Virus genome (UHGV): UHGV-0117379
Source: a virus
Strand: one strand, 5' to 3'
DNA length: 35,783 nt
Every line of letters begins with the position of its first letter. The stretch's first letter is position 1. Both the position numbers and the translations under genes were made by a program. Positions 5,267 through 12,347 of this stretch are shown one piece after another. The notes under the pieces were generated by a model. That model was given only the letters and a program-made list of their open reading frames with translations, made no database searches and had not been told where the DNA came from.

Positions 5267-6120
5267 GCACCATCCTGAAATGGGCGGGTAATAAAACCAC
5301 CATTATGTCCGAACTGAAAAAATACCTTCCTGCTGGCACGCGACTGGTTGAACCTTTCGCGGGTTCTTGTGCTGTGATGATGGAGACGGATTACCCCAGC
5401 TATCTGGTTGCGGATATTAATCCTGATTTAATCAACCTCTATAAAAAGGTTGCTGCTGATTGTGAGGCGTTTATATCTCGTGCCAGAGCTTTATTTGAGG
5501 AAGCAAACAGAGAGGTGGCTTATTACAACATAAGGCAGGAGTTTAATTACTCCACTGAAATTACTGATTTCATGAAAGCGGTATATTTTCTGTATCTCAA
5601 TCGTCATGGTTACCGTGGGCTATGTCGCTATAACAAGAGCGGGTATTTCAACATTCCCTACGGTAATTATAAAAATCCGTATTTCCCTGAAAAAGAAATT
5701 CGCGCATTTGCAGAGAAAGCCCAGCGGGCAACGTTTATCTGCGCCAGCTTTGATGAAACGCTGGCGATGTTGAAGGCGGGGGATGTGGTGTATTGCGATC
5801 CGCCTTATGACGGTACGTTTTCCGGCTATCACACTGATGGCTTCACTGAAGATGACCAGTATCACCTGGCATCCGTTCTTGAACATCGATCATCTGAAGG
5901 TCATCCGGTCATTGTTTCTAACAGTGACACATCCCTGATCCGTTCGCTGTATCGCAATTTTACTCACCACTACATCAAGGCAAAACGCAGCATCGGCGTG
6001 GCAGCTGGTGAGAGTAAATCTGCAACAGAAATCATCGCTGTTTCCGGGCCGCGCTGCTGGGTAGGATTTGATCCTTCGCGTGGCGTGGATTGTTCCGTCG
6101 TGTACGGAGTGCGTGCATGA
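5263..6120 (+). CDS. dam: DNA adenine methyltransferase (Dam, N6-adenine, D12 class)
   Basis: [17 protein letters not shown] (SAM-binding) and DPPY catalytic motif; ATGA overlaps at both ends (5263..5266 and 6117..6120). Confidence 0.85.
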
Positions 6121-8531
6121 GCCATGCTGATATGAACAACTGCAGCGGCTTTAACGAGGTCGCCGCAGCATTCTCATGGAACAGCCCGAAAAAGGCCATT
6201 AACCCTTATCTGGACCCGGCGGAAGTTGCGCCGGTTTCTGCGCTTTCAAACCTGATCACTCTGTACGCTGCCGATAACGAGCAGGAACAACTGCGCCGCG
6301 AGGCACTGAGTGATCAGGTCTGGGAGCGTTATTTCTTTAATGAATCCCGTGATCCTGTCCAACGCGAAATGGAGCAGGATAAGCTAATTAGCCGGGCAAA
6401 GCTGGCGCATGAGCAGCAGCGTTTTAATCCAGACATGGCCATTCTGGCGGACGTCAACGCCCAGCCTTCCCATATCAGCAAGCCGCTGATGCAACGTATT
6501 AAATACTTCAGCAGCCTGGGCAGGCCAAAGGCTTATTCCCGCTATTTGCGTGAGACGATTAAGCCATGCCTGGAACGACTGGAGCATGTACGCGACAGTC
6601 AGCTATCCACTTCTTTTCGCTTTATGGCAAGCCATGAAGGGCTGGACGGCCTGCTGATCCTGCCTGAAATGAGTCAGGATCAGGTGAAACGCCTGTCCAC
6701 CTTGGTAGCTGCGCATATGAGCATGTGCCTTGATACAGCTTGTGGCGATTTGTATGCCACCGATGATGTTACGCCAGAAGAAATCCGCAAGACATGGGAA
6801 AAGGTGGCAGCGGAAACCCTGCGTCTGGATGTTATCCCGCCTGCGTTTGAGCAACTCCGTCGGAAAAGAAACCGCCGTAAACCCGTGCCTTATGAACTCA
6901 TTCCTGGTTCGCTGGCGCGTATGTTATGCGCCGACTGGTGGTATCGGAAATTATGGAAGATGCGTTGCGAATGGCGGGAAGAGCAGTTGCGTGCTGTTTG
7001 CCTGGTCAGCAAAAAAGCATCTCCCTATGTCAGCTATGAAGCCGTGATGCATAAACGTGAGCAGCGCCGTAAGTCGCTGGAGTTTTTCCGTTCTCATGAA
7101 CTGGTGAACGAAGACGGCGACACGCTGGATATGGAAGACGTGGTAAACGCCAGCAGCAGCAACCCTGCGCATCGCCGCAATGAGATGATGGCCTGTGTTA
7201 AAGGTCTGGAGCTTATCGCGGAAATGCGCGGTGACTGCGCCGTTTTCTACACCATCACCTGTCCGTCACGTTTCCATTCCACGCTAAATAACGGCAGGCC
7301 CAACCCGACCTGGACAAATGCGACGGTAAGACAAAGCAGTGATTATCTGGTCGGTATGTTTGCTGCATTTCGTAAGGCGATGCACAAAGCCGGATTACGC
7401 TGGTATGGCGTGCGGGTGGCTGAGCCGCATCATGACGGTACAGTTCACTGGCACCTGTTGTGTTTTATGCGCAAAAAAGATCGCCGCGCCATTACTGCTT
7501 TGTTGCGTAAGTTTGCCATTCGTGAAGACCGCGAGGAGCTGGGTAATAACACGGAACCACGCTTTAAGTCTGAGCTGATAAACCCGCGCAAAGGTACGCC
7601 AACAAGCTACATCGCGAAATACATCAGTAAGAACATTGACGGGCGTGGTCTGGCTGGCGAGATCAGCAAGGAAACGGGTAAATCCCTGCGTGATAACGCC
7701 GAATACGTTAATGCCTGGGCGTCTCTGCATCGTGTTCAGCAATTCCGCTTCTTTGGCATTCCGGGGCGTCAGGCTTACCGTGAACTGCGATTGCTGGCTG
7801 GTCAGGCGGCAAGGCAACAGGGGGACAAAAAAGCAGGTGCGCCGGTACTGGATAACCCGCGCCTTGATGCCATCCTGGCTGCCGCTGATGCTGGCTGTTT
7901 TGCCACCTACATCATGAAGCAGGGCGGCGTACTGGTTCCCCGCAAATATCACCTCATCAGAACCGCTTATGAAATCAACGAAGAGCCGACCGCCTATGGC
8001 GATCACGGTATTCGTATTTATGGCATCTGGTCACCCATTGCAGAGGGCAAGATCTGCACTCATGCGGTGAAGTGGAAAATGGTTCGTAAGGCCGTTGACA
8101 TTCAGGAGGCGGCAGCCGACCAGGGCGCTTGCGCCCCTTGGACTCGTGGCAATAACTGTCCCCTTGCTGAAAATTTGAACCAACAAGGGAAAGACAAATC
8201 AGCTGATGGGGATACCAGAACGGAGATCACCCGCATGGATGACAAGGAGTTGCACGATTACCTGCACAGTATGAGCAAAAAAGAGCGCCGGGAACTGGCA
8301 GCAAGGTTACGCCTGGTGAAACCGAAATGGCGTAAAGACTACAAACAGCGAATTACAGAGCATCAGCGTCAGCAGCTCGTCTATGAACTGAAGTCCAGAG
8401 GATTTGATGGCAGCGAGAAAGAGGTCGATCTGCTCCTTCGCGGTGGCAGTATTCCGTCAGGAGCAGGCCTGCGTATCTTCTATCGGAACCAGCGTTTGCA
8501 GGAAGATGATAAGTGGCGGAACCTGTATTAA
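6117..8531 (+). CDS. A: Replication initiation protein A (P2 gpA family rolling-circle nickase)
   Basis: 804 aa; HWHLLCF and YIAKYISK (paired active-site Tyr) motifs typical of P2 gpA; position after the early operon. Confidence 0.9.
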
Positions 8532-8623
8532 TTACGCGGGTTAACAATTCGTGCTCTTAATAATACCAGGCATATCAGGCTGATGAACGTAAAAAAACGT
8601 TTTACATCAGTAAGATTATTATA

Positions 8624-8643
8624 TACTGTAAATATAAACAGTG
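8624..8643. promoter_or_regulatory. LexA (SOS) box TACTGTAAATATAAACAGTG
   Basis: Perfect CTGT-N8-ACAG with AT-rich spacer, directly upstream of the 8685 ORF; TTTACA -35 at 8601..8606. Confidence 0.7.
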
Positions 8644-8684
8644 GCTATACATACAGTGTTGCGTGTGGTGTCATAGGAGGAAAG

Positions 8685-8873
8685 ATGCAGGACTATTTTT
8701 TGGAGTCTTTGAAGCTCCAGCGCATTGATTTTTTTCTTAAGCTTGTAGCGGCTAGTGAGTGTAGTGATGAAGAGAAGGGGCTGGCTTTGCAATGGGTTTC
8801 TGAACTGACAGATGAACTCATGGCAAAAATCAGAACCCACGAATACAACCGCTCAATGGATGTCATCAGCTGA
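8685..8873 (+). CDS. LexA-controlled small protein (62 aa), possible Tum-like antirepressor
   Basis: ATG 8685 with AGGAGG RBS immediately downstream of the LexA box; occupies the position of 186 tum; no sequence-level recognition. Confidence 0.45.
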   Translation: MQDYFLESLKLQRIDFFLKLVAASECSDEEKGLALQWVSELTDELMAKIRTHEYNRSMDVIS

Positions 8874-8883
8874 GGTGACTTTT

Positions 8884-9117
8884 ATGCGCATTGAAATAAT
8901 GATCGATAAAGAGCAGAAGATTAGCCAGTCTACCCTGGACGCCCTTGAATCCGAGCTTTACCGCAATCTGCGCCCCCTGTATCCCAAGACGGCGATCCGC
9001 ATTCGCAAAGGCAGTGCCAACGGTATCGAGTTGACCGGCTTAAAACTTGATGAGGATAAGCAGCGGGTAATGGAAATTATGCAGCAGGTCTGGGAAGACG
9101 ACAGCTGGCTGCATTAG
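8884..9117 (+). CDS. DinI-family protein
   Basis: 77 aa; MRIEIMIDKEQ...L..LESEL..NL...YP...IRIRKGSANGIELTG...DEDKQRVMEIMQQVWEDDSW matches the DinI pattern (MRIEVTI......ETWESADDW); GAGGTGA RBS. Confidence 0.75.
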   Translation: MRIEIMIDKEQKISQSTLDALESELYRNLRPLYPKTAIRIRKGSANGIELTGLKLDEDKQRVMEIMQQVWEDDSWLH

Positions 9118-9403
9118 CGAACGTTGCGGACGATAAAACTGGCTTTTACCGTCCGCAAGGTTGAACAACGAGCCGTGCGAGGCGTTAGAAATTGCCTTTG
9201 TTAGTGCCTGCTTCTCATAAGAGGCACTATATATGCTAAATGCAGTGGTTTAAGGCAGAAACATCTTGCGCGATTAGGGGCAATGAACTTAAGTTAAGTA
9301 ACGCAACCAACAGTTAAAACGGTTGTCTTAGTTATAAGGAACTTGCTGTTGTGGTTGCTGGTGACGAAGTGTACACTTCCGCGCCGTATAAGAAGGAGGG
9401 GTT

Positions 9404-9622
9404 ATGTCAAGTATCGCCGCATTGAAGCTGGGTAATCCAGTTGAACGTTTGGCACGGGTTCTGAAAGAGAACCAGGACAAGCTCAATCTGAGTAAAGATG
9501 GTTTTGTGTCCGTAGATTTGTCCAACGAAGAAGCTATGAAAGCCATCCGAGATCAGATGGATAAGCTTGAAGGCATCAAAACGAGCACTGTTAAAGCAAA
9601 ATATTATTACAGAACCCGATAA
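9404..9622 (+). CDS. Hypothetical 72-aa protein (first gene of accessory module)
   Basis: Strong RBS AAGGAGGGG; stop overlaps next start (TAATG). Confidence 0.55.
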   Translation: MSSIAALKLGNPVERLARVLKENQDKLNLSKDGFVSVDLSNEEAMKAIRDQMDKLEGIKTSTVKAKYYYRTR

Positions 9623-10464
9623 TGGCAACATTACTTTTAGCAGTGATTTTGGTTAGTGGTTTTATATATGTAAACCTATCACTTTCAACACGTTATAGAT
9701 ATAAGCGTTCCAATGGCTGGGACGCTTATTTTTTTGTGGCTGCATGGGGAATTGTCTTTTTCCTCGCTGGCGGCTTCCTTACCTTCGCTCTTAACATCAG
9801 CGGTGGGTTTCGCTGGTTTTCTAATGCGCTGAATCTGACTCCAGACAGCTTTAACGGGATGTTATCCACCACAACCGATAAACCGCAGCGCATCAATGAA
9901 ATTAAGCAAATCGCGTGGGTTGTGATTTCAATAGTTCTCGCGGCGCTGTTCGGTTGGCTAAACAAACGCCGTACTTCAAAAGGGGATCGCCGTTGGGATG
10001 CACTGGCAAAGGCAGTGGGAAACAATGCTTTTGAATCGCTGCTCATGGAAGCATCAGCTCGCCAGTTTCCTATCATTGCTACACTTTCATCACGCAAAAT
10101 CTATGTAGGGCTGGTGACTTGCCCTGCGTTGGAAAATGGATTGTCGGAACACCTTGAAATTCTCCCCTTGCTGAGCGGATATCGTGATAAAGACGACCTA
10201 ACGATAAATATCACGACAAACTATCATCAGCACTATCTTGATAGCGGTGTTATCAATGGGATGTCGCGCCTGAATATCCAGGATTTCCGTGTGCTTCTCC
10301 CTAAAGATGAAGTTGAAACCATCTCGTTTTTTGATACTGAAACGTATAACAAATTTAAAGAAAACGAAGCGCGTGACCGGAAAGACTGCCGCAAGTTGGG
10401 TGGTAAAAAGCCATCCGCACGCAGGAGAAAGACTGCTGGCGACGCAGAGCAGGGTAGTGCATGA
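9622..10464 (+). CDS. Membrane protein, 280 aa (3-4 N-terminal TM helices plus about 160 aa soluble domain)
   Basis: Hydrophobic stretches LLLAVILVSGFIYV, YFFVAAWGIVFFLAGGFLTFAL, IAWVVISIVLAALFGWL; translationally coupled to the 72-aa ORF. Confidence 0.6.
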   Translation: MATLLLAVILVSGFIYVNLSLSTRYRYKRSNGWDAYFFVAAWGIVFFLAGGFLTFALNISGGFRWFSNALNLTPDSFNGMLSTTTDKPQRINEIKQIAWVVISIVLAALFGWLNKRRTSKGDRRWDALAKAVGNNAFESLLMEASARQFPIIATLSSRKIYVGLVTCPALENGLSEHLEILPLLSGYRDKDDLTINITTNYHQHYLDSGVINGMSRLNIQDFRVLLPKDEVETISFFDTETYNKFKENEARDRKDCRKLGGKKPSARRRKTAGDAEQGSA

Positions 10465-10510
10465 CTATGCTGCATGAATTTGCATGATCGTTTGAGGATC
10501 GTTTTAGCTC

Positions 10511-10538
10511 CGGCCCGCCAGTTCAGGCGGGCTTTTTC
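10511..10538 (+). terminator. Rho-independent terminator after the membrane-protein gene
   Basis: GCCCGCC-AGTTCA-GGCGGGC stem-loop followed by TTTTT. Confidence 0.7.
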
Positions 10539-10584
10539 ATATCTCATGCAGGTGCATGAAAACCACTACACAAAGCGGGCAGGC

Positions 10585-10610
10585 GTGGCGGGGATACGAG
10601 CGCGCGCTCA
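10585..10610. other. Candidate cos site (GGCGTGGCGGGGA...)
   Basis: GGCGTGGCGGGGA at 10591..10603 matches the first 13 nt of the 186/P2 cohesive-end sequence as I recall it; lies between A-side genes and Q as expected. Confidence 0.3.
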
Positions 10611-10665
10611 TTACTTTTATAATTCTAGGGTTATAATACAGGGCTATCTTTCTAGGAGAAAACAC

Positions 10666-12318
10666 ATGTCCTTAGAGTTTATCAAAGAACAGTTGTCAGA
10701 TTTTATCTCATCTACAGAACCAGAAGTAATGGCTATACAGGGTGAATGGGGAATTGGTAAAACCTATACTTGGAATACGTTCCTAAAAGATAATAAAGAT
10801 AAGGTTGCATTTAATAGATATAGTTATGTCTCTCTTTTTGGTATAAATTCACTAGATTCTTTAAAGTATTCTATTTTTGAGAATGCAATTACAAAGGAAT
10901 ATATTGGAAATAAACCTGATTTGGAGACAGCAACAACAAACGCAAGTGGACTTTTTGAATCGTTTTCTCGAAAAGCCGCAGGTTTGTTAAAAGAAGCTCC
11001 TGTTGTAAAAAACTTCTCTACGACACTTGAAGCAATGTCATTTCTGACCGTTTCTAAAATGATTGTAGTAATAGATGACTTAGAAAGGCGTGGCAAAAAC
11101 TTAGATGTTAAAGATGTTTTAGGGCTAGTATCTCTATTAAAGGAGCAGAAGGATTGTAAGGTGGTTCTATTGCTTAACAATGGCACAGCTAGTATGGAGG
11201 ATTATTCTACTTATAAAGAAAAGGTCATTGATAGAGATATCACTTACAATCCAACACCAGAAGAATGCGCAGATATAGCCTATAAAGGTGATTTTCATGT
11301 TTATAACTTGTTAAGTAAATATTCCATTTCTTTAGGTATCAAGAATATTCGAATCTTAAAAAAGATAGAACGTTTTTTCGTGTCCTTAACACCAAATATT
11401 ATAGGTGATGTTGAGACAATTTCAAATGAAGTTGCGCATTCATTAACTCTGTATTGTTGGAGCCATTACGGATTTTCTCCAGAGGGAGATGTGCCATCAC
11501 TAGAATATATTAGGGGAGTGAGGAATATATATACTTATAATGACAAGGAAGAAGGCCATGAGAAAGTCTGGCTTAATACCTTGCTTAAATATGGATATAG
11601 AAAAACGAATGATCTTGATGAGGTTCTTATTGATATGGTTAGATATGGCTATCTTGATAAGAGCAGTTTCCAAAGACAAATAAGCCTAAGGAATGAGGAG
11701 ATTACGCGTGATAATAAACGAGGTTCCTTATCTGAGGCATGGCAGTTCTTTCATAATTCATTTGATGACAATCAAAATCAGGTTGTTGACAAGCTATATC
11801 AAGCGGTGGTTGATGGGATGAAGTATGTGACTCCAAGTGATTTAGATAATGTTGTCGGACTATATAGGGATTTCGGAGAGAATGCTAAGGCGAGTGAATT
11901 GATTGAACAGTTTATTAATTATGGTAACGATGCTCTAAAGGAATATGTTCAATCTATTTATGTGAATGTTCATCCCGTAAGAGATGCTGAGTTGTTGTCA
12001 AAAATTCAAGCCTATTCTAATATTATAAATATTGATGGTTCAATATATGATGTTCTTAAGAAATTATCAGGTCAGAATGGTTGGTCTGATAGACATGAGG
12101 AAATATTGGATGCTGCTTCAGTAGATGACTACTATCAATTATTTAAAAATGTCATTCTTGATGGTGGTGATTCAATAATAGCTACGGCGCTTAAATTCGG
12201 AAATTATAGTAATGGTTCTGATAGAATGAATCGTATAGGGAAAAAGGCAAGGGATGCCTTGATAAGAATTGGAGATGAATCGGCGATTAATAAAATACGT
12301 GTAAGGCGATTTTTGTGA
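10666..12318 (+). CDS. KAP-family P-loop NTPase (550 aa), AT-rich accessory gene
   Basis: Walker A IQGEWGIGKTYTWN (G-x-W-G-x-GKT KAP signature), Walker B MIVVIDDLER; ATG 10666 with AGGAG RBS and TATAAT elements upstream; much lower GC than phage core; flanked by terminators. Confidence 0.8.
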   Translation: MSLEFIKEQLSDFISSTEPEVMAIQGEWGIGKTYTWNTFLKDNKDKVAFNRYSYVSLFGINSLDSLKYSIFENAITKEYIGNKPDLETATTNASGLFESFSRKAAGLLKEAPVVKNFSTTLEAMSFLTVSKMIVVIDDLERRGKNLDVKDVLGLVSLLKEQKDCKVVLLLNNGTASMEDYSTYKEKVIDRDITYNPTPEECADIAYKGDFHVYNLLSKYSISLGIKNIRILKKIERFFVSLTPNIIGDVETISNEVAHSLTLYCWSHYGFSPEGDVPSLEYIRGVRNIYTYNDKEEGHEKVWLNTLLKYGYRKTNDLDEVLIDMVRYGYLDKSSFQRQISLRNEEITRDNKRGSLSEAWQFFHNSFDDNQNQVVDKLYQAVVDGMKYVTPSDLDNVVGLYRDFGENAKASELIEQFINYGNDALKEYVQSIYVNVHPVRDAELLSKIQAYSNIINIDGSIYDVLKKLSGQNGWSDRHEEILDAASVDDYYQLFKNVILDGGDSIIATALKFGNYSNGSDRMNRIGKKARDALIRIGDESAINKIRVRRFL

Positions 12319-12325
12319 TTTTTAT

Positions 12326-12347
12326 AGGGGTGATTAACCCCTTTTTA
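12326..12347. terminator. Bidirectional terminator between the KAP NTPase gene and Q
   Basis: AGGGGT-GATTA-ACCCCT stem-loop followed by TTTTTA. Confidence 0.65.

What the first reader, a model, noticed from the sequence alone, without database searches (positions are those of the whole stretch)
9404..10464. Accessory two-gene module (72-aa protein plus 280-aa membrane protein) in the post-A variable region (P2 tin/old hotspot position)
In P2 the slot between gene A and cos carries tin and old and is a known hotspot for swapping anti-phage systems. Here it holds a translationally coupled pair: a small soluble protein and a protein with 3-4 TM helices plus a cytoplasmic domain. The pair has its own strong RBS and a downstream terminator. 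The architecture resembles small-sensor plus membrane-effector abortive-infection or exclusion systems. Neither protein is recognisable to me.
Basis: inference. Interest (0 to 1): 0.6.

Follow-up and report, generated by a model that had tools for sequence, protein, structure and literature searches.

The report
Membrane Sm-like protein pair, P2 hotspot
A P2-like prophage carries, next to its packaging site, a self-contained two-gene cassette (a small protein plus a 3-helix membrane protein with an Sm/Hfq-like domain inside the cell) that belongs to a large, unnamed family and is a plausible but untested anti-phage or membrane module.

Summary
Two real, translationally coupled genes lie at 9404-9622 (72 aa) and 9622-10464 (280 aa), between the replication gene A/DinI block and cos. 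Both are under strong purifying selection.

New findings:
- The 280-aa protein has 3 TM helices (predicted N-out, C-in) and a cytoplasmic domain with an Sm/LSm/Hfq-like fold.
- Its family is large (about 3,200 clusters at 50% identity) and matches no Pfam, NCBIfam, PADLOC or PDB entry.
- A small ORF sits directly upstream in nearly every relative, and is recognisably homologous in 29 of 47 loci.
- The cassette moves on its own. It occupies accessory slots of P2-like, lambdoid and siphovirus prophages, including the HK97 gp15 moron position, and also ordinary chromosomal sites.
- The "own terminator" belongs to the conserved P2 cos flank.
- The KAP NTPase next door lies across cos and is a separate acquisition.

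Function is untested. Rousset 2022 catalogued the pair but did not assay it. My best guess (about 0.4) is a prophage-expressed inner-membrane exclusion or abortive-infection complex. A non-defence membrane function is nearly as likely, because distant chromosomal copies are not in defence islands.

The parts
9157..9403 (+). Upstream non-coding region that travels with the cassette. It contains the invariant palindrome ACTTAAGTTAAGT (9287-9299), a candidate weak promoter TTGCGC (9266-9271)-N18-TAAGTT (9290-9295), the inverted repeat GCAACCAACAG...CTGTTGTGGTTGC, and the palindrome GTGTACAC.
   Evidence: Alignment of 9 loci. Similarity starts at about 9157 even in backbones whose gpA is only 35-40% identical and that lack DinI (L015, L037). 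The consensus scan found no strong sigma-70 promoter. RNAalifold gave no convincing covariation.
9393..9401 (+). Shine-Dalgarno sequence AAGGAGGGG for the small gene
   Evidence: Read directly from the sequence. Conserved in the alignment.
9404..9622 (+). Small partner protein, 72 aa (phrog_9843). Predicted short helix, beta-hairpin (KDGFVSVDL) and long amphipathic helix, with a basic C-terminus.
   Evidence: pLDDT 72. dN/dS 0.16-0.27. An iterative HMM search of 4,005 small ORFs found 29 homologues, and every one was the ORF immediately upstream of an M280 homologue.
9622..10464 (+). Inner-membrane protein, 280 aa (phrog_3630). TM helices at 1-19, 37-55 and 91-112, a linker of two helices (122-147), a cytoplasmic Sm/LSm/Hfq-like beta-barrel (about 149-238), a C-terminal helix (239-259) and a basic disordered tail. 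Signature motifs are RKxYVG...PLLSGYRDKD...TNY...FD.
10457..10607 (+). Right boundary of the cassette: the conserved P2-type cos region. It carries a terminator-like hairpin (10512-10533 plus a T run) and a cos-like 19-mer GGCGTGGCGGGGATACGAG (10582-10600). It is backbone rather than cargo, and probably terminates the cassette transcript.
   Evidence: The same segment is present in Klebsiella phage ST13-OXA48phi12.1 and at the end of the linear Cartapus record, both of which lack the pair.

Best explanation
The pair is an autonomous, horizontally mobile accessory cassette ('moron') of temperate phages. It encodes an inner-membrane complex.

Proposed working model:
- The 280-aa protein inserts with three TM helices, placing an Sm-like beta-barrel in the cytoplasm.
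- Like other Sm-fold domains, this domain probably forms a hexa- or heptameric ring under the membrane, bundling 18-21 TM helices.
- The small partner is made in step with it through translational coupling and probably binds its conserved cytoplasmic face as a regulator or gate.
- Expressed from the prophage, the complex most likely protects the lysogen against other phages at the membrane. It would either obstruct genome entry (superinfection exclusion) or dissipate the membrane potential after sensing a phage nucleic acid or protein through the conserved K159/Y161/S185/R188/Y201 surface (abortive infection).

Shown here: gene structure and coupling, purifying selection, deep co-conservation of the two genes, independent mobility, and location in accessory or defence slots of several prophage types.

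Predicted here: topology and the Sm-like fold.

Inferred only: oligomerisation, partner binding, expression in the lysogen, the trigger, and any anti-phage effect.
For: (1) Hotspot location. The pair fills the DinI-to-cos slot of the P2 gpA-gpQ hotspot, which is a documented reservoir of anti-phage systems (PMC9122126; PMC13586616).

(2) Same cassette in other prophage accessory slots:
- next to attP after int in Cronobacter phiES15;
- between the repressor and int in Pseudoalteromonas C5a;
- at the cI-proximal edge of a Shewanella P2-like prophage;
- in a Vibrio lambdoid prophage;
- in the nin-type region of a Hafnia lambdoid prophage;
- between the major tail protein and the tape measure protein in an Aeromonas prophage. 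This last site is where the HK97 gp15 exclusion moron sits (PMC3594210).

(3) Independent mobility.
- Pairs 99-100% identical sit in backbones with only 84% gpA and 64-71% DinI identity, and the reverse also occurs.
- GC is 44-46% in the pair against 53% in the backbone.
- The pair is the only cargo in about 10 of 41 loci. In the rest it is followed by at least 15 different cargo lengths, including a SEFIR-domain gene, SieB and PIN_12.

(4) Obligate two-gene unit. A small ORF ends within a few nucleotides of the large gene's start in nearly all relatives. In 29 of 47 loci it is detectably homologous, with zero false hits among 4,005 decoy ORFs. The Aeromonas partner carries its own N-terminal hydrophobic helix, which places the partner at the membrane.

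(5) Design precedent (my own knowledge). A TM anchor plus a small cytoplasmic beta-barrel or sensor domain is the layout of known membrane effectors such as CBASS Cap15 and lambda RexB with RexA.
Against: - No experiment exists for this pair.
- No PADLOC hit at E<=1, no Pfam or NCBIfam family, and no solved relative by sequence.
- The large family also occurs as an isolated pair in ordinary chromosomal contexts (Pseudomonas fluorescens group, Paludibacterium, Pseudogulbenkiania, a cyanobacterium, Binatia).
- Among 129 neighbours of 17 distant loci, only a few PADLOC models are hit and most neighbours are housekeeping.
- No diversifying selection: the periplasmic loop has dN/dS 0.08 and the whole protein is below 0.1 apart from the tail.
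- Roughly a quarter of P2 hotspots carry non-defence cargo such as partition systems (PMC9122126).
- Known exclusion proteins are usually single genes.
- Ring formation and ligand binding are assumed from the fold alone.
Confidence: 0.4

Rival explanations
1. Non-defence membrane function. The pair is a general envelope or physiology module, for example an ion or stress-related channel-like complex or a membrane-tethered RNA-binding factor. It exists in bacterial chromosomes and has been picked up by temperate phages as a host-fitness (lysogenic-conversion) gene.
For: - Large family with uniform architecture (3,199 clusters, nearly all 230-336 aa).
- Conserved chromosomal position in the Pseudomonas fluorescens group next to an HTH-cupin regulator and an OMP gene.
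- Housekeeping neighbours in other phyla, with few defence hits.
- Uniformly strong purifying selection and no arms-race signature.
- The 3TM plus Sm-like beta-domain layout recalls MscS-type channels (my own knowledge).
Against: - Patchy, cassette-like distribution.
- Repeated capture in accessory or defence slots of at least five prophage types.
- Morons with chromosomal homologues can still be exclusion genes, as with gp15/YebO (PMC3594210).
Confidence: 0.3
2. Toxin-antitoxin or addiction cassette. The membrane protein is a toxin that damages the membrane, and the small upstream protein is its antitoxin and perhaps autorepressor. The cassette would stabilise the prophage or itself rather than targeting phages.
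For: - Small gene first, overlapping the start of the larger gene, in nearly all relatives.
- Isolated, mobile two-gene islands in unrelated chromosomal sites.
- An invariant palindrome overlaps the candidate -10 element and travels with the cassette.
- TTAAGT/ACTTAA half-sites recur upstream in several distant loci (10 observed, about 3 expected).
Against: - No similarity to any known TA family.
- The half-site enrichment is weak and confounded by AT-rich intergenic sequence.
- Many TA systems act in phage defence, so this rival overlaps the best explanation.
Confidence: 0.12
3. Phage life-cycle accessory. The pair serves the carrying phage itself during induction or infection, for example in membrane steps of DNA entry or exit, lysis timing or replication anchoring. 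It may be co-expressed with the SOS-controlled orf62-DinI/Tum operon just upstream.
For: - A perfect LexA box (TACTGTAAATATAAACAGT, 8624-8643) precedes orf62-DinI.
- Only a hairpin without a U-tract (about 9125-9159) separates that operon from the pair, and no canonical terminator was found there.
- The spacing from DinI to the pair is constant (about 290 nt) in most P2-like loci.
Against: - The pair is found in only 127 of 5,426 complete E. coli genomes, i.e. in a minority of P2-like prophages.
- It occurs in backbones without DinI (L015, L020-23, L037-40).
- It sits at unrelated positions in other phage types and in non-phage chromosomes.
- It has no homology to core phage functions (PHROGs of unknown function only).
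Confidence: 0.13
4. Three-gene system. The pair works together with the downstream KAP-family NTPase (10666-12318) as one defence system.
For: Adjacency on the same strand in this window. KAP NTPases are defence-associated (PADLOC PDC-S49, E=4.5e-28).
Against: - The conserved cos region and a terminator-like hairpin lie between them. In the linear virion DNA they would therefore lie at opposite ends (inferred from the cos position).
- GC is 44-46% for the pair against 33% for KAP.
- The pair occurs alone or with other cargo in most loci. KAP follows it only in the loci identical to this window.
- By its PADLOC name, PDC-S49 appears to be a single-gene candidate (my reading of the naming scheme).
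Confidence: 0.03

Closest known systems
HK97 gp15 moron (superinfection exclusion; YebO family)
   Same: Prophage accessory cassette encoding an inner-membrane protein. In an Aeromonas prophage the pair lies immediately upstream of the tape measure gene, after the major tail protein; gp15 likewise sits just before the tape measure gene (PMC3594210). Both have chromosomal homologues outside prophages.
   Different: gp15 is a single small protein with no partner and no Sm-like domain. There is no sequence or fold relationship. An exclusion phenotype is shown for gp15 and is untested here.
Lambda RexA/RexB abortive-infection pair (my own knowledge)
   Same: A two-gene prophage module with a polytopic membrane component and a second protein thought to control it.
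   Different: No homology. RexB has 4 TM helices and no cytoplasmic domain. The sensor RexA is the large soluble protein, whereas here the soluble partner is only 54-103 aa. Gene order and sizes differ.
P2 tin and old; Rst systems of P2/P4 hotspots (PMC9122126)
   Same: Same genomic slot (gpA to cos/gpQ). Same pattern of rapid cargo swapping.
   Different: No homology to Tin, Old or any PADLOC model. The pair is listed in Table S5A only as 'hypothetical + hypothetical' and was not among the cloned systems.
Sm/LSm/Hfq proteins
   Different: No Pfam LSM or Hfq sequence match. The signature is different (PLLSGYRDKD). There is an insertion between beta4 and beta5. The domain is fused to three TM helices. 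Ring formation and RNA binding are unknown.
MscS-type mechanosensitive channels (my own knowledge: 3 TM helices followed by an Sm-like beta domain, heptameric)
   Same: Overall architecture (3 TM helices plus an Sm-like beta domain on the cytoplasmic side) and similar length.
CBASS Cap15-type effectors and SNIPE (PMC13190303)
   Same: Defence proteins anchored in the inner membrane whose cytoplasmic domain senses or acts on something at the membrane. SNIPE shows that acting at the genome-injection site is a real strategy.
   Different: No cyclase and no nuclease domain here. No homology. The relation is conceptual only.

Membership tests
Known or candidate anti-phage systems (PADLOC-DB v2.0.0) | Significant match of a component protein to a system HMM | tested here: not met
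   0 families at E<=1 for both proteins. The neighbouring KAP NTPase does hit PDC-S49.
Moron / hotspot cargo of temperate phages | Present or absent between conserved backbone genes; exchanged independently of the backbone | tested here: met
   Found in 127 of 5,426 E. coli genomes. Identity of the pair is decoupled from gpA, Dam and DinI identity. It appears in different slots in different phage types.
Moron / hotspot cargo of temperate phages | Base composition different from neighbouring genes | tested here: met
   GC 44-46% against 53% for the backbone and 33% for KAP.
Moron / hotspot cargo of temperate phages | Own promoter and terminator allowing expression from the repressed prophage | tested here: inconclusive
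   A conserved upstream region travels with the cassette, but no strong sigma-70 match was found. The terminator-like hairpin belongs to the conserved cos flank. Expression was not measured.
Sm/LSm/Hfq superfamily | Sm fold (N-terminal helix plus five strongly bent beta-strands) | tested here: met
Sm/LSm/Hfq superfamily | Sm1/Sm2 or Hfq sequence motifs (Pfam LSM, Hfq) | tested here: not met
   No such Pfam hit at E<=1. No PDB relative by profile search.
Sm/LSm/Hfq superfamily | Hexa- or heptameric ring that binds RNA | not testable with these tools
   No multimer prediction or binding assay is available here.
MscS-like channels | Homology of the TM3/beta-domain core (Pfam MS_channel) or a fold match to MscS | tested here: not met
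Characterised superinfection-exclusion proteins (SieA, SieB, T4 Imm, gp15/YebO) | Sequence family membership | tested here: not met
   No Pfam, PHROG-annotated or NCBIfam match to any of them.
Characterised superinfection-exclusion proteins (SieA, SieB, T4 Imm, gp15/YebO) | Blocks phage genome entry without blocking adsorption | not testable with these tools
   Needs adsorption and DNA-injection assays.
Type II-like toxin-antitoxin modules | Small upstream gene overlapping a larger downstream gene, co-inherited | tested here: met
   TAATG overlap. An upstream small ORF is present in nearly all loci.
Type II-like toxin-antitoxin modules | Toxicity of one component neutralised by the other; homology to a known TA family | tested here: inconclusive
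   No homology to known TA families. Toxicity and neutralisation cannot be tested here.

The most novel reading that the evidence does not exclude
The pair defines a previously unrecognised, widespread class of membrane-anchored Sm-like ring proteins with an obligate small partner, and this class is a new anti-phage mechanism. For example, an Sm ring under the inner membrane could capture incoming phage nucleic acid or a phage protein, then plug genome entry or open a pore. Temperate phages of several families would trade this module at their defence hotspots.
Probability: 0.2. Interest if true: 0.75.

Novelty: new variant of a known kind. Interest (0 to 1): 0.5.

Why it matters
P2-type hotspots are a proven source of new immune systems, and much of their cargo remains unexplained.

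This cassette is a well-defined unit of about 1.3 kb that can be cloned. It is often the only cargo in its slot. It recurs in accessory slots of unrelated prophages. It belongs to a family of thousands of sequence clusters that has no name, no domain model and no structure.

A membrane-tethered Sm-like domain with a fixed small partner is an architecture that I did not find described for phage defence in the literature searched here. If it protects against phages, it would add a new membrane-level mechanism and would annotate a large set of "hypothetical" gene pairs. If it does not, it still identifies a sizeable uncharacterised bacterial membrane protein family. It would also correct a propagated misannotation, since the small partner is labelled "multidrug ABC transporter ATPase" in NCBI records.

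Tried and rejected
- PADLOC, Pfam and NCBIfam on both proteins gave nothing meaningful. PHROGs returned only families of unknown function.
- PDB profile searches gave only noise for both proteins.
- MscS homology is not supported.
- Rfam on 8400-10800 gave only a sub-threshold chance hit.
- RNAalifold on the upstream region showed no convincing covariation (covariation term +1.08).
- The sigma-70 scan found no good plus-strand promoter between DinI and the pair.
- A search for inverted repeats upstream of distant homologues found no common operator. The TTAAGT half-site count is only weakly enriched.
- A test for diversifying selection in the periplasmic loop was negative.
- A test for defence-island context of distant chromosomal copies was largely negative.
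- The three-gene reading with KAP was rejected on the cos position, GC content and co-occurrence.
- Literature: no functional report was found. The pair is absent from the tested systems of Rousset 2022 and from the DefensePredictor supplements. No supplements were held for Moura de Sousa 2026.
- The afdb50 fold library was unavailable.
- The antisense ORFs at 9328-9546, 9407-9631 and 9726-10097 were treated as spurious, because selection acts in the plus-strand frames.
Full report
WHAT IS THERE

The two ORFs exist exactly as reported: 9404..9622 (72 aa, here called S72) and 9622..10464 (280 aa, here called M280), both on the + strand. The stop of S72 overlaps the start of M280 (TAATG at 9620-9624). 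M280 has no Shine-Dalgarno sequence of its own, while S72 has AAGGAGGGG at 9393-9401. Translational coupling is therefore the natural reading.

Both are real genes. Across P2-like loci that differ by up to 16% in nucleotide sequence, dN/dS is 0.16-0.27 for S72 and 0.06-0.08 for M280. Within M280 the C-terminal beta-domain is the most constrained part (0.02). The basic tail is the least constrained (0.37).

SURROUNDINGS

The order of features is as follows.
- Dam methylase, then gpA (6090-8531).
- A perfect LexA box, TACTGTAAATATAAACAGT (8624-8643).
- orf62 (phrog_698) and a DinI/Tum-like gene (Pfam DinI, E=2.7e-24), ending at 9117.
- A conserved hairpin without a U-tract (about 9125-9159).
- The cassette itself.
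- A segment of about 150 bp (10457-10607) that is conserved in P2-like phages whatever cargo they carry.
- A KAP-family NTPase (10666-12318; PADLOC candidate PDC-S49, E=4.5e-28).
- A terminator (12326-12342).
- The portal gene Q on the minus strand.

The conserved 150-bp segment holds the terminator-like hairpin at 10512-10533. It also holds GGCGTGGCGGGGATACGAG at 10582-10600. From my own recollection this closely resembles the P2/P4 cohesive-end sequence. It also resembles the GGCGAGGCGGGGAAAGCAC-type motif visible in the cos-adjacent P4 loci printed in Rousset's Table S2A.

The same segment occurs in Klebsiella phage ST13-OXA48phi12.1 and at the very end of the linear record of phage Cartapus. 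Neither phage has the pair.

Three conclusions follow.
- The pair fills the right-end slot (DinI to cos), and KAP fills a separate left-end slot (cos to Q).
- The "downstream terminator" is backbone, not part of the module.
- GC content marks three compartments: backbone 53%, pair 44-46%, KAP 33%.

THE LARGE PROTEIN (M280)

Hydropathy and the AF2 model (mean pLDDT 81) give three TM helices, at 1-19, 37-55 and 91-112. Loop 1 and the stretch after TM3 are strongly positive across the family (mean net charge about +3 each). Loop 2 is neutral. By the positive-inside rule the N-terminus faces the periplasm and the C-terminal domain is cytoplasmic. This is a prediction.

There is no sequence-level match to Pfam LSM, Hfq or MS_channel and none to any PDB chain. 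No MscS structure appears among the listed fold matches.

Across homologues down to about 23% identity, the invariant residues are G13 (TM1), G43 (TM2), Y161, G163, P182, S185-G186-Y187-R188 and Y201. K159, D189, K190 and F237 are nearly invariant. Together they form the signature RKxYVG...PLLSGYRDKD...TNY...FD.

THE SMALL PROTEIN (S72)

FAMILY SIZE AND THE TWO-GENE UNIT

An exhaustive profile search finds 3,199 clusters at 50% identity with E<=1e-3, of which 2,452 have E<=1e-10. Almost all are full-length proteins of 230-336 aa. Yet no Pfam, NCBIfam or PADLOC model exists for the family, only PHROGs of unknown function.

In nearly every locus fetched, a small ORF of 54-103 aa ends within a few nucleotides of the M280 homologue's start. 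I then ran an iterative HMM, seeded with S72 homologues, against all 4,005 small ORFs (six frames) from 47 loci. It recovered 29 hits, and every one was the immediately upstream ORF, with no false positive. These reach loci where M280 identity is only 27-34% (Shewanella, Paludibacterium, Pseudogulbenkiania, Alkalimonas, Nitrincola, Mixta).

In the remaining loci (Pseudomonas, Hafnia, phiES15, C5a, a cyanobacterium, Binatia) an upstream ORF of the same size and position is present. By eye it shares the pattern "dG-h-x-h-d-h, then an amphipathic helix", but the HMM does not detect it. The Aeromonas partner has an N-terminal hydrophobic helix.

Deep co-conservation plus start/stop overlap argues that the two proteins work together, probably as a complex. 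This is an inference.

MOBILITY AND CONTEXT

In 41 P2-like loci the pair always sits between gpA (with or without orf62-DinI) and cos/Q. The distance from its stop to the portal gene ranges from about 300 bp to 3,064 bp. The shortest distances, where the pair is the only cargo, occur in about 10 loci. There are at least 15 size classes overall.

Known neighbours include a SEFIR-domain gene in Klebsiella phage ST15-OXA48phi14.1, SieB and PIN_12 in E. coli, and KAP in this window.

Pairs that are 99-100% identical occur in backbones whose gpA is 84% identical and whose DinI is 64-71% identical. Conversely, backbones 97-98% identical in gpA carry pairs only 85-90% identical. The conserved upstream region of about 250 bp, starting near 9157, moves with the pair even into backbones lacking DinI. 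The pair is found in only 127 of 5,426 complete E. coli genomes.

Outside P2-like phages the same two-gene unit is found in these places.
- Next to attP, after int, in Cronobacter phage phiES15.
- Between the repressor and int in Pseudoalteromonas phage C5a.
- At the cI-proximal edge of a Shewanella P2-like prophage. This resembles the K139-type hotspot described by Rousset et al..
- In a Vibrio parahaemolyticus lambdoid prophage.
- Between an exoribonuclease gene and antiterminator Q in a Hafnia lambdoid prophage.
- Between the major tail protein (phrog_807) and the tape measure protein of an Aeromonas prophage. This is the position of the HK97 gp15 exclusion moron (PMC3594210).

It also occurs as an isolated pair in ordinary chromosomal neighbourhoods. 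One is a conserved site in the Pseudomonas fluorescens group. Others lie beside malic enzyme, rsmI/lppC, PEP carboxylase and methylmalonyl-CoA mutase in other phyla. Among 129 genes within 4 kb of 17 such distant loci, Pfam shows mostly housekeeping functions. PADLOC is hit by only a handful, and several of those are generic.

WHAT IS KNOWN FROM THE LITERATURE

Rousset et al. 2022 (PMC9122126) defined the gpA-gpQ hotspot and tested ten loci from it. The E. coli versions of the pair (WP_000094764 and WP_021556032) appear in their Table S5A only as "hypothetical + hypothetical". Their sequences are absent from the tables of tested systems.

Moura de Sousa et al. 2026 (PMC13586616) confirm rapid cargo turnover at this hotspot, but tested novel loci only from P4. 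The pair is not in the DefensePredictor supplements held here. Full-text searches for Sm-like membrane proteins in phage defence returned only WYL regulators. I therefore regard the pair as catalogued but functionally uncharacterised.

HOW IT MOST LIKELY WORKS

I commit, at about 0.4, to a prophage-expressed inner-membrane complex that acts against other phages. The proposed steps are these.
- M280 oligomerises through its Sm-like domain into a ring beneath the membrane, as Sm-fold domains characteristically do. This is established knowledge for the fold but untested here.
- S72 binds the conserved cytoplasmic face (loop 1 and the Sm domain) as a gate or regulator.
- A phage component engages the invariant polar surface (K159, Y161, S185, R188, Y201).
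- The outcome is either a block of genome entry or loss of membrane potential.

Everything beyond gene structure, coupling, predicted topology and fold, co-conservation, mobility and hotspot residence is inference.

RIVAL EXPLANATIONS

The strongest rival (0.3) is a non-defence membrane function that phages carry as a host-fitness gene. It is favoured by the many chromosomal, non-island copies and by uniformly strong purifying selection with no arms-race signature.

A TA/addiction reading (0.12) fits the gene order and the cassette-borne palindrome ACTTAAGTTAAGT that overlaps the candidate -10 element. It overlaps the defence reading.

A life-cycle role linked to the SOS-controlled DinI operon (0.13) is weakened by the pair's rarity among P2-like phages and by its different positions elsewhere.

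A three-gene system with KAP (0.03) is rejected on the cos position, GC content and co-occurrence.

NOVELTY AND SCORE

The kind of element, swappable hotspot cargo or moron of temperate phages, is well known. The protein family and its architecture (3 TM helices plus a cytoplasmic Sm-like domain with an obligate small partner) are not described in any library or paper I could search. I rate it a new variant of a known kind, with interest 0.5.

It is a good, cleanly delimited experimental candidate and a large unannotated family. There is no functional evidence, and there is a real chance that it is not a defence system. The most novel reading not excluded is a new class of membrane-anchored Sm-ring anti-phage effector. 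I give that about 0.2 probability, and it would merit about 0.75 interest if true.

Noticed in passing
window 10666-12318 (+), terminator 12326-12342: A KAP-family P-loop NTPase (550 aa; Pfam KAP_NTPase 5.5e-07, PADLOC candidate PDC-S49 4.5e-28, phrog_4740). GC is only about 33%. It lies between cos and the portal gene, so it is a separate, probably defence-related, cargo in the left-end slot of the hotspot.
   Followed up: partly
window 10457-10607: Conserved P2-type cos region: a terminator-like hairpin (10512-10533) plus a cos-like 19-mer GGCGTGGCGGGGATACGAG (10582-10600). It is shared by P2-like phages with different cargo on both sides. The last codons and the stop of the 280-aa gene (10457-10464) fall inside this backbone segment, so the cargo/backbone junction lies at the gene's 3' end.
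   Followed up: yes
window 8624-8643, upstream of orf62 (8685-8873) and the DinI-like gene (to 9117): A perfect LexA box, TACTGTAAATATAAACAGT, and the only CTGT-N8-ACAG match in the window. It suggests a 186-like SOS-controlled orf62-DinI/Tum operon immediately upstream of the cassette. No canonical terminator separates the two, only a conserved hairpin without a U-tract at about 9125-9159 that shows compensatory changes between loci.
   Followed up: partly
homologues of window 9404-9622 (P0075, P0081-P0083, P0086, P0091, P0092 and others): NCBI and UniRef records name this roughly 70-aa protein 'multidrug ABC transporter ATPase'. No ABC or ATPase domain is detectable, so this looks like a propagated misannotation.
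   Followed up: partly
window 9203-9228, 9287-9299, 9303-9360, 9369-9376: The upstream region carries several conserved symmetric elements. These are the hairpin AGTGCCT...AGGCACT (some compensatory changes), the invariant palindrome ACTTAAGTTAAGT, the 12-bp inverted repeat GCAACCAACAG/CTGTTGTGGTTGC, and GTGTACAC. TTAAGT/ACTTAA half-sites also occur upstream of the small gene in several distant loci (10 observed against about 3 expected). A perfect palindrome, TTAAGTTTAT-AT-ATAAACTTAA, is present in Hafnia (L061:7680-7701). This may be an operator, but it is unproven.
   Followed up: partly
window 9404 to about 9730, compared with L012, L015, L044, L046: Mosaicism inside the cassette. The upstream region, the small gene and the first 36 or so codons of the large gene are nearly identical between loci (dS 0.04-0.26). 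The rest of the large gene is much more diverged (dS 0.8-1.4). This points to a recombination breakpoint within the module.
   Followed up: partly
L082:6820-8825 (Aeromonas MAG prophage): The pair sits between the major tail protein and the tape measure gene. No tail-assembly chaperone genes are called there. Either the chaperones are unrecognised or were displaced, or the prophage is defective.
   Followed up: no
L087-L090 (Pseudomonas fluorescens group), genes at 8111-9828 of L087: The chromosomal version of the pair (66 aa plus 275 aa, overlapping by 13 nt) sits at a conserved site directly downstream of an XRE-HTH/cupin regulator and next to an OMP beta-barrel gene. The position is maintained in four independent records (one complete Pseudomonas poae genome and three metagenome or sequencing-run contigs).
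   Followed up: partly
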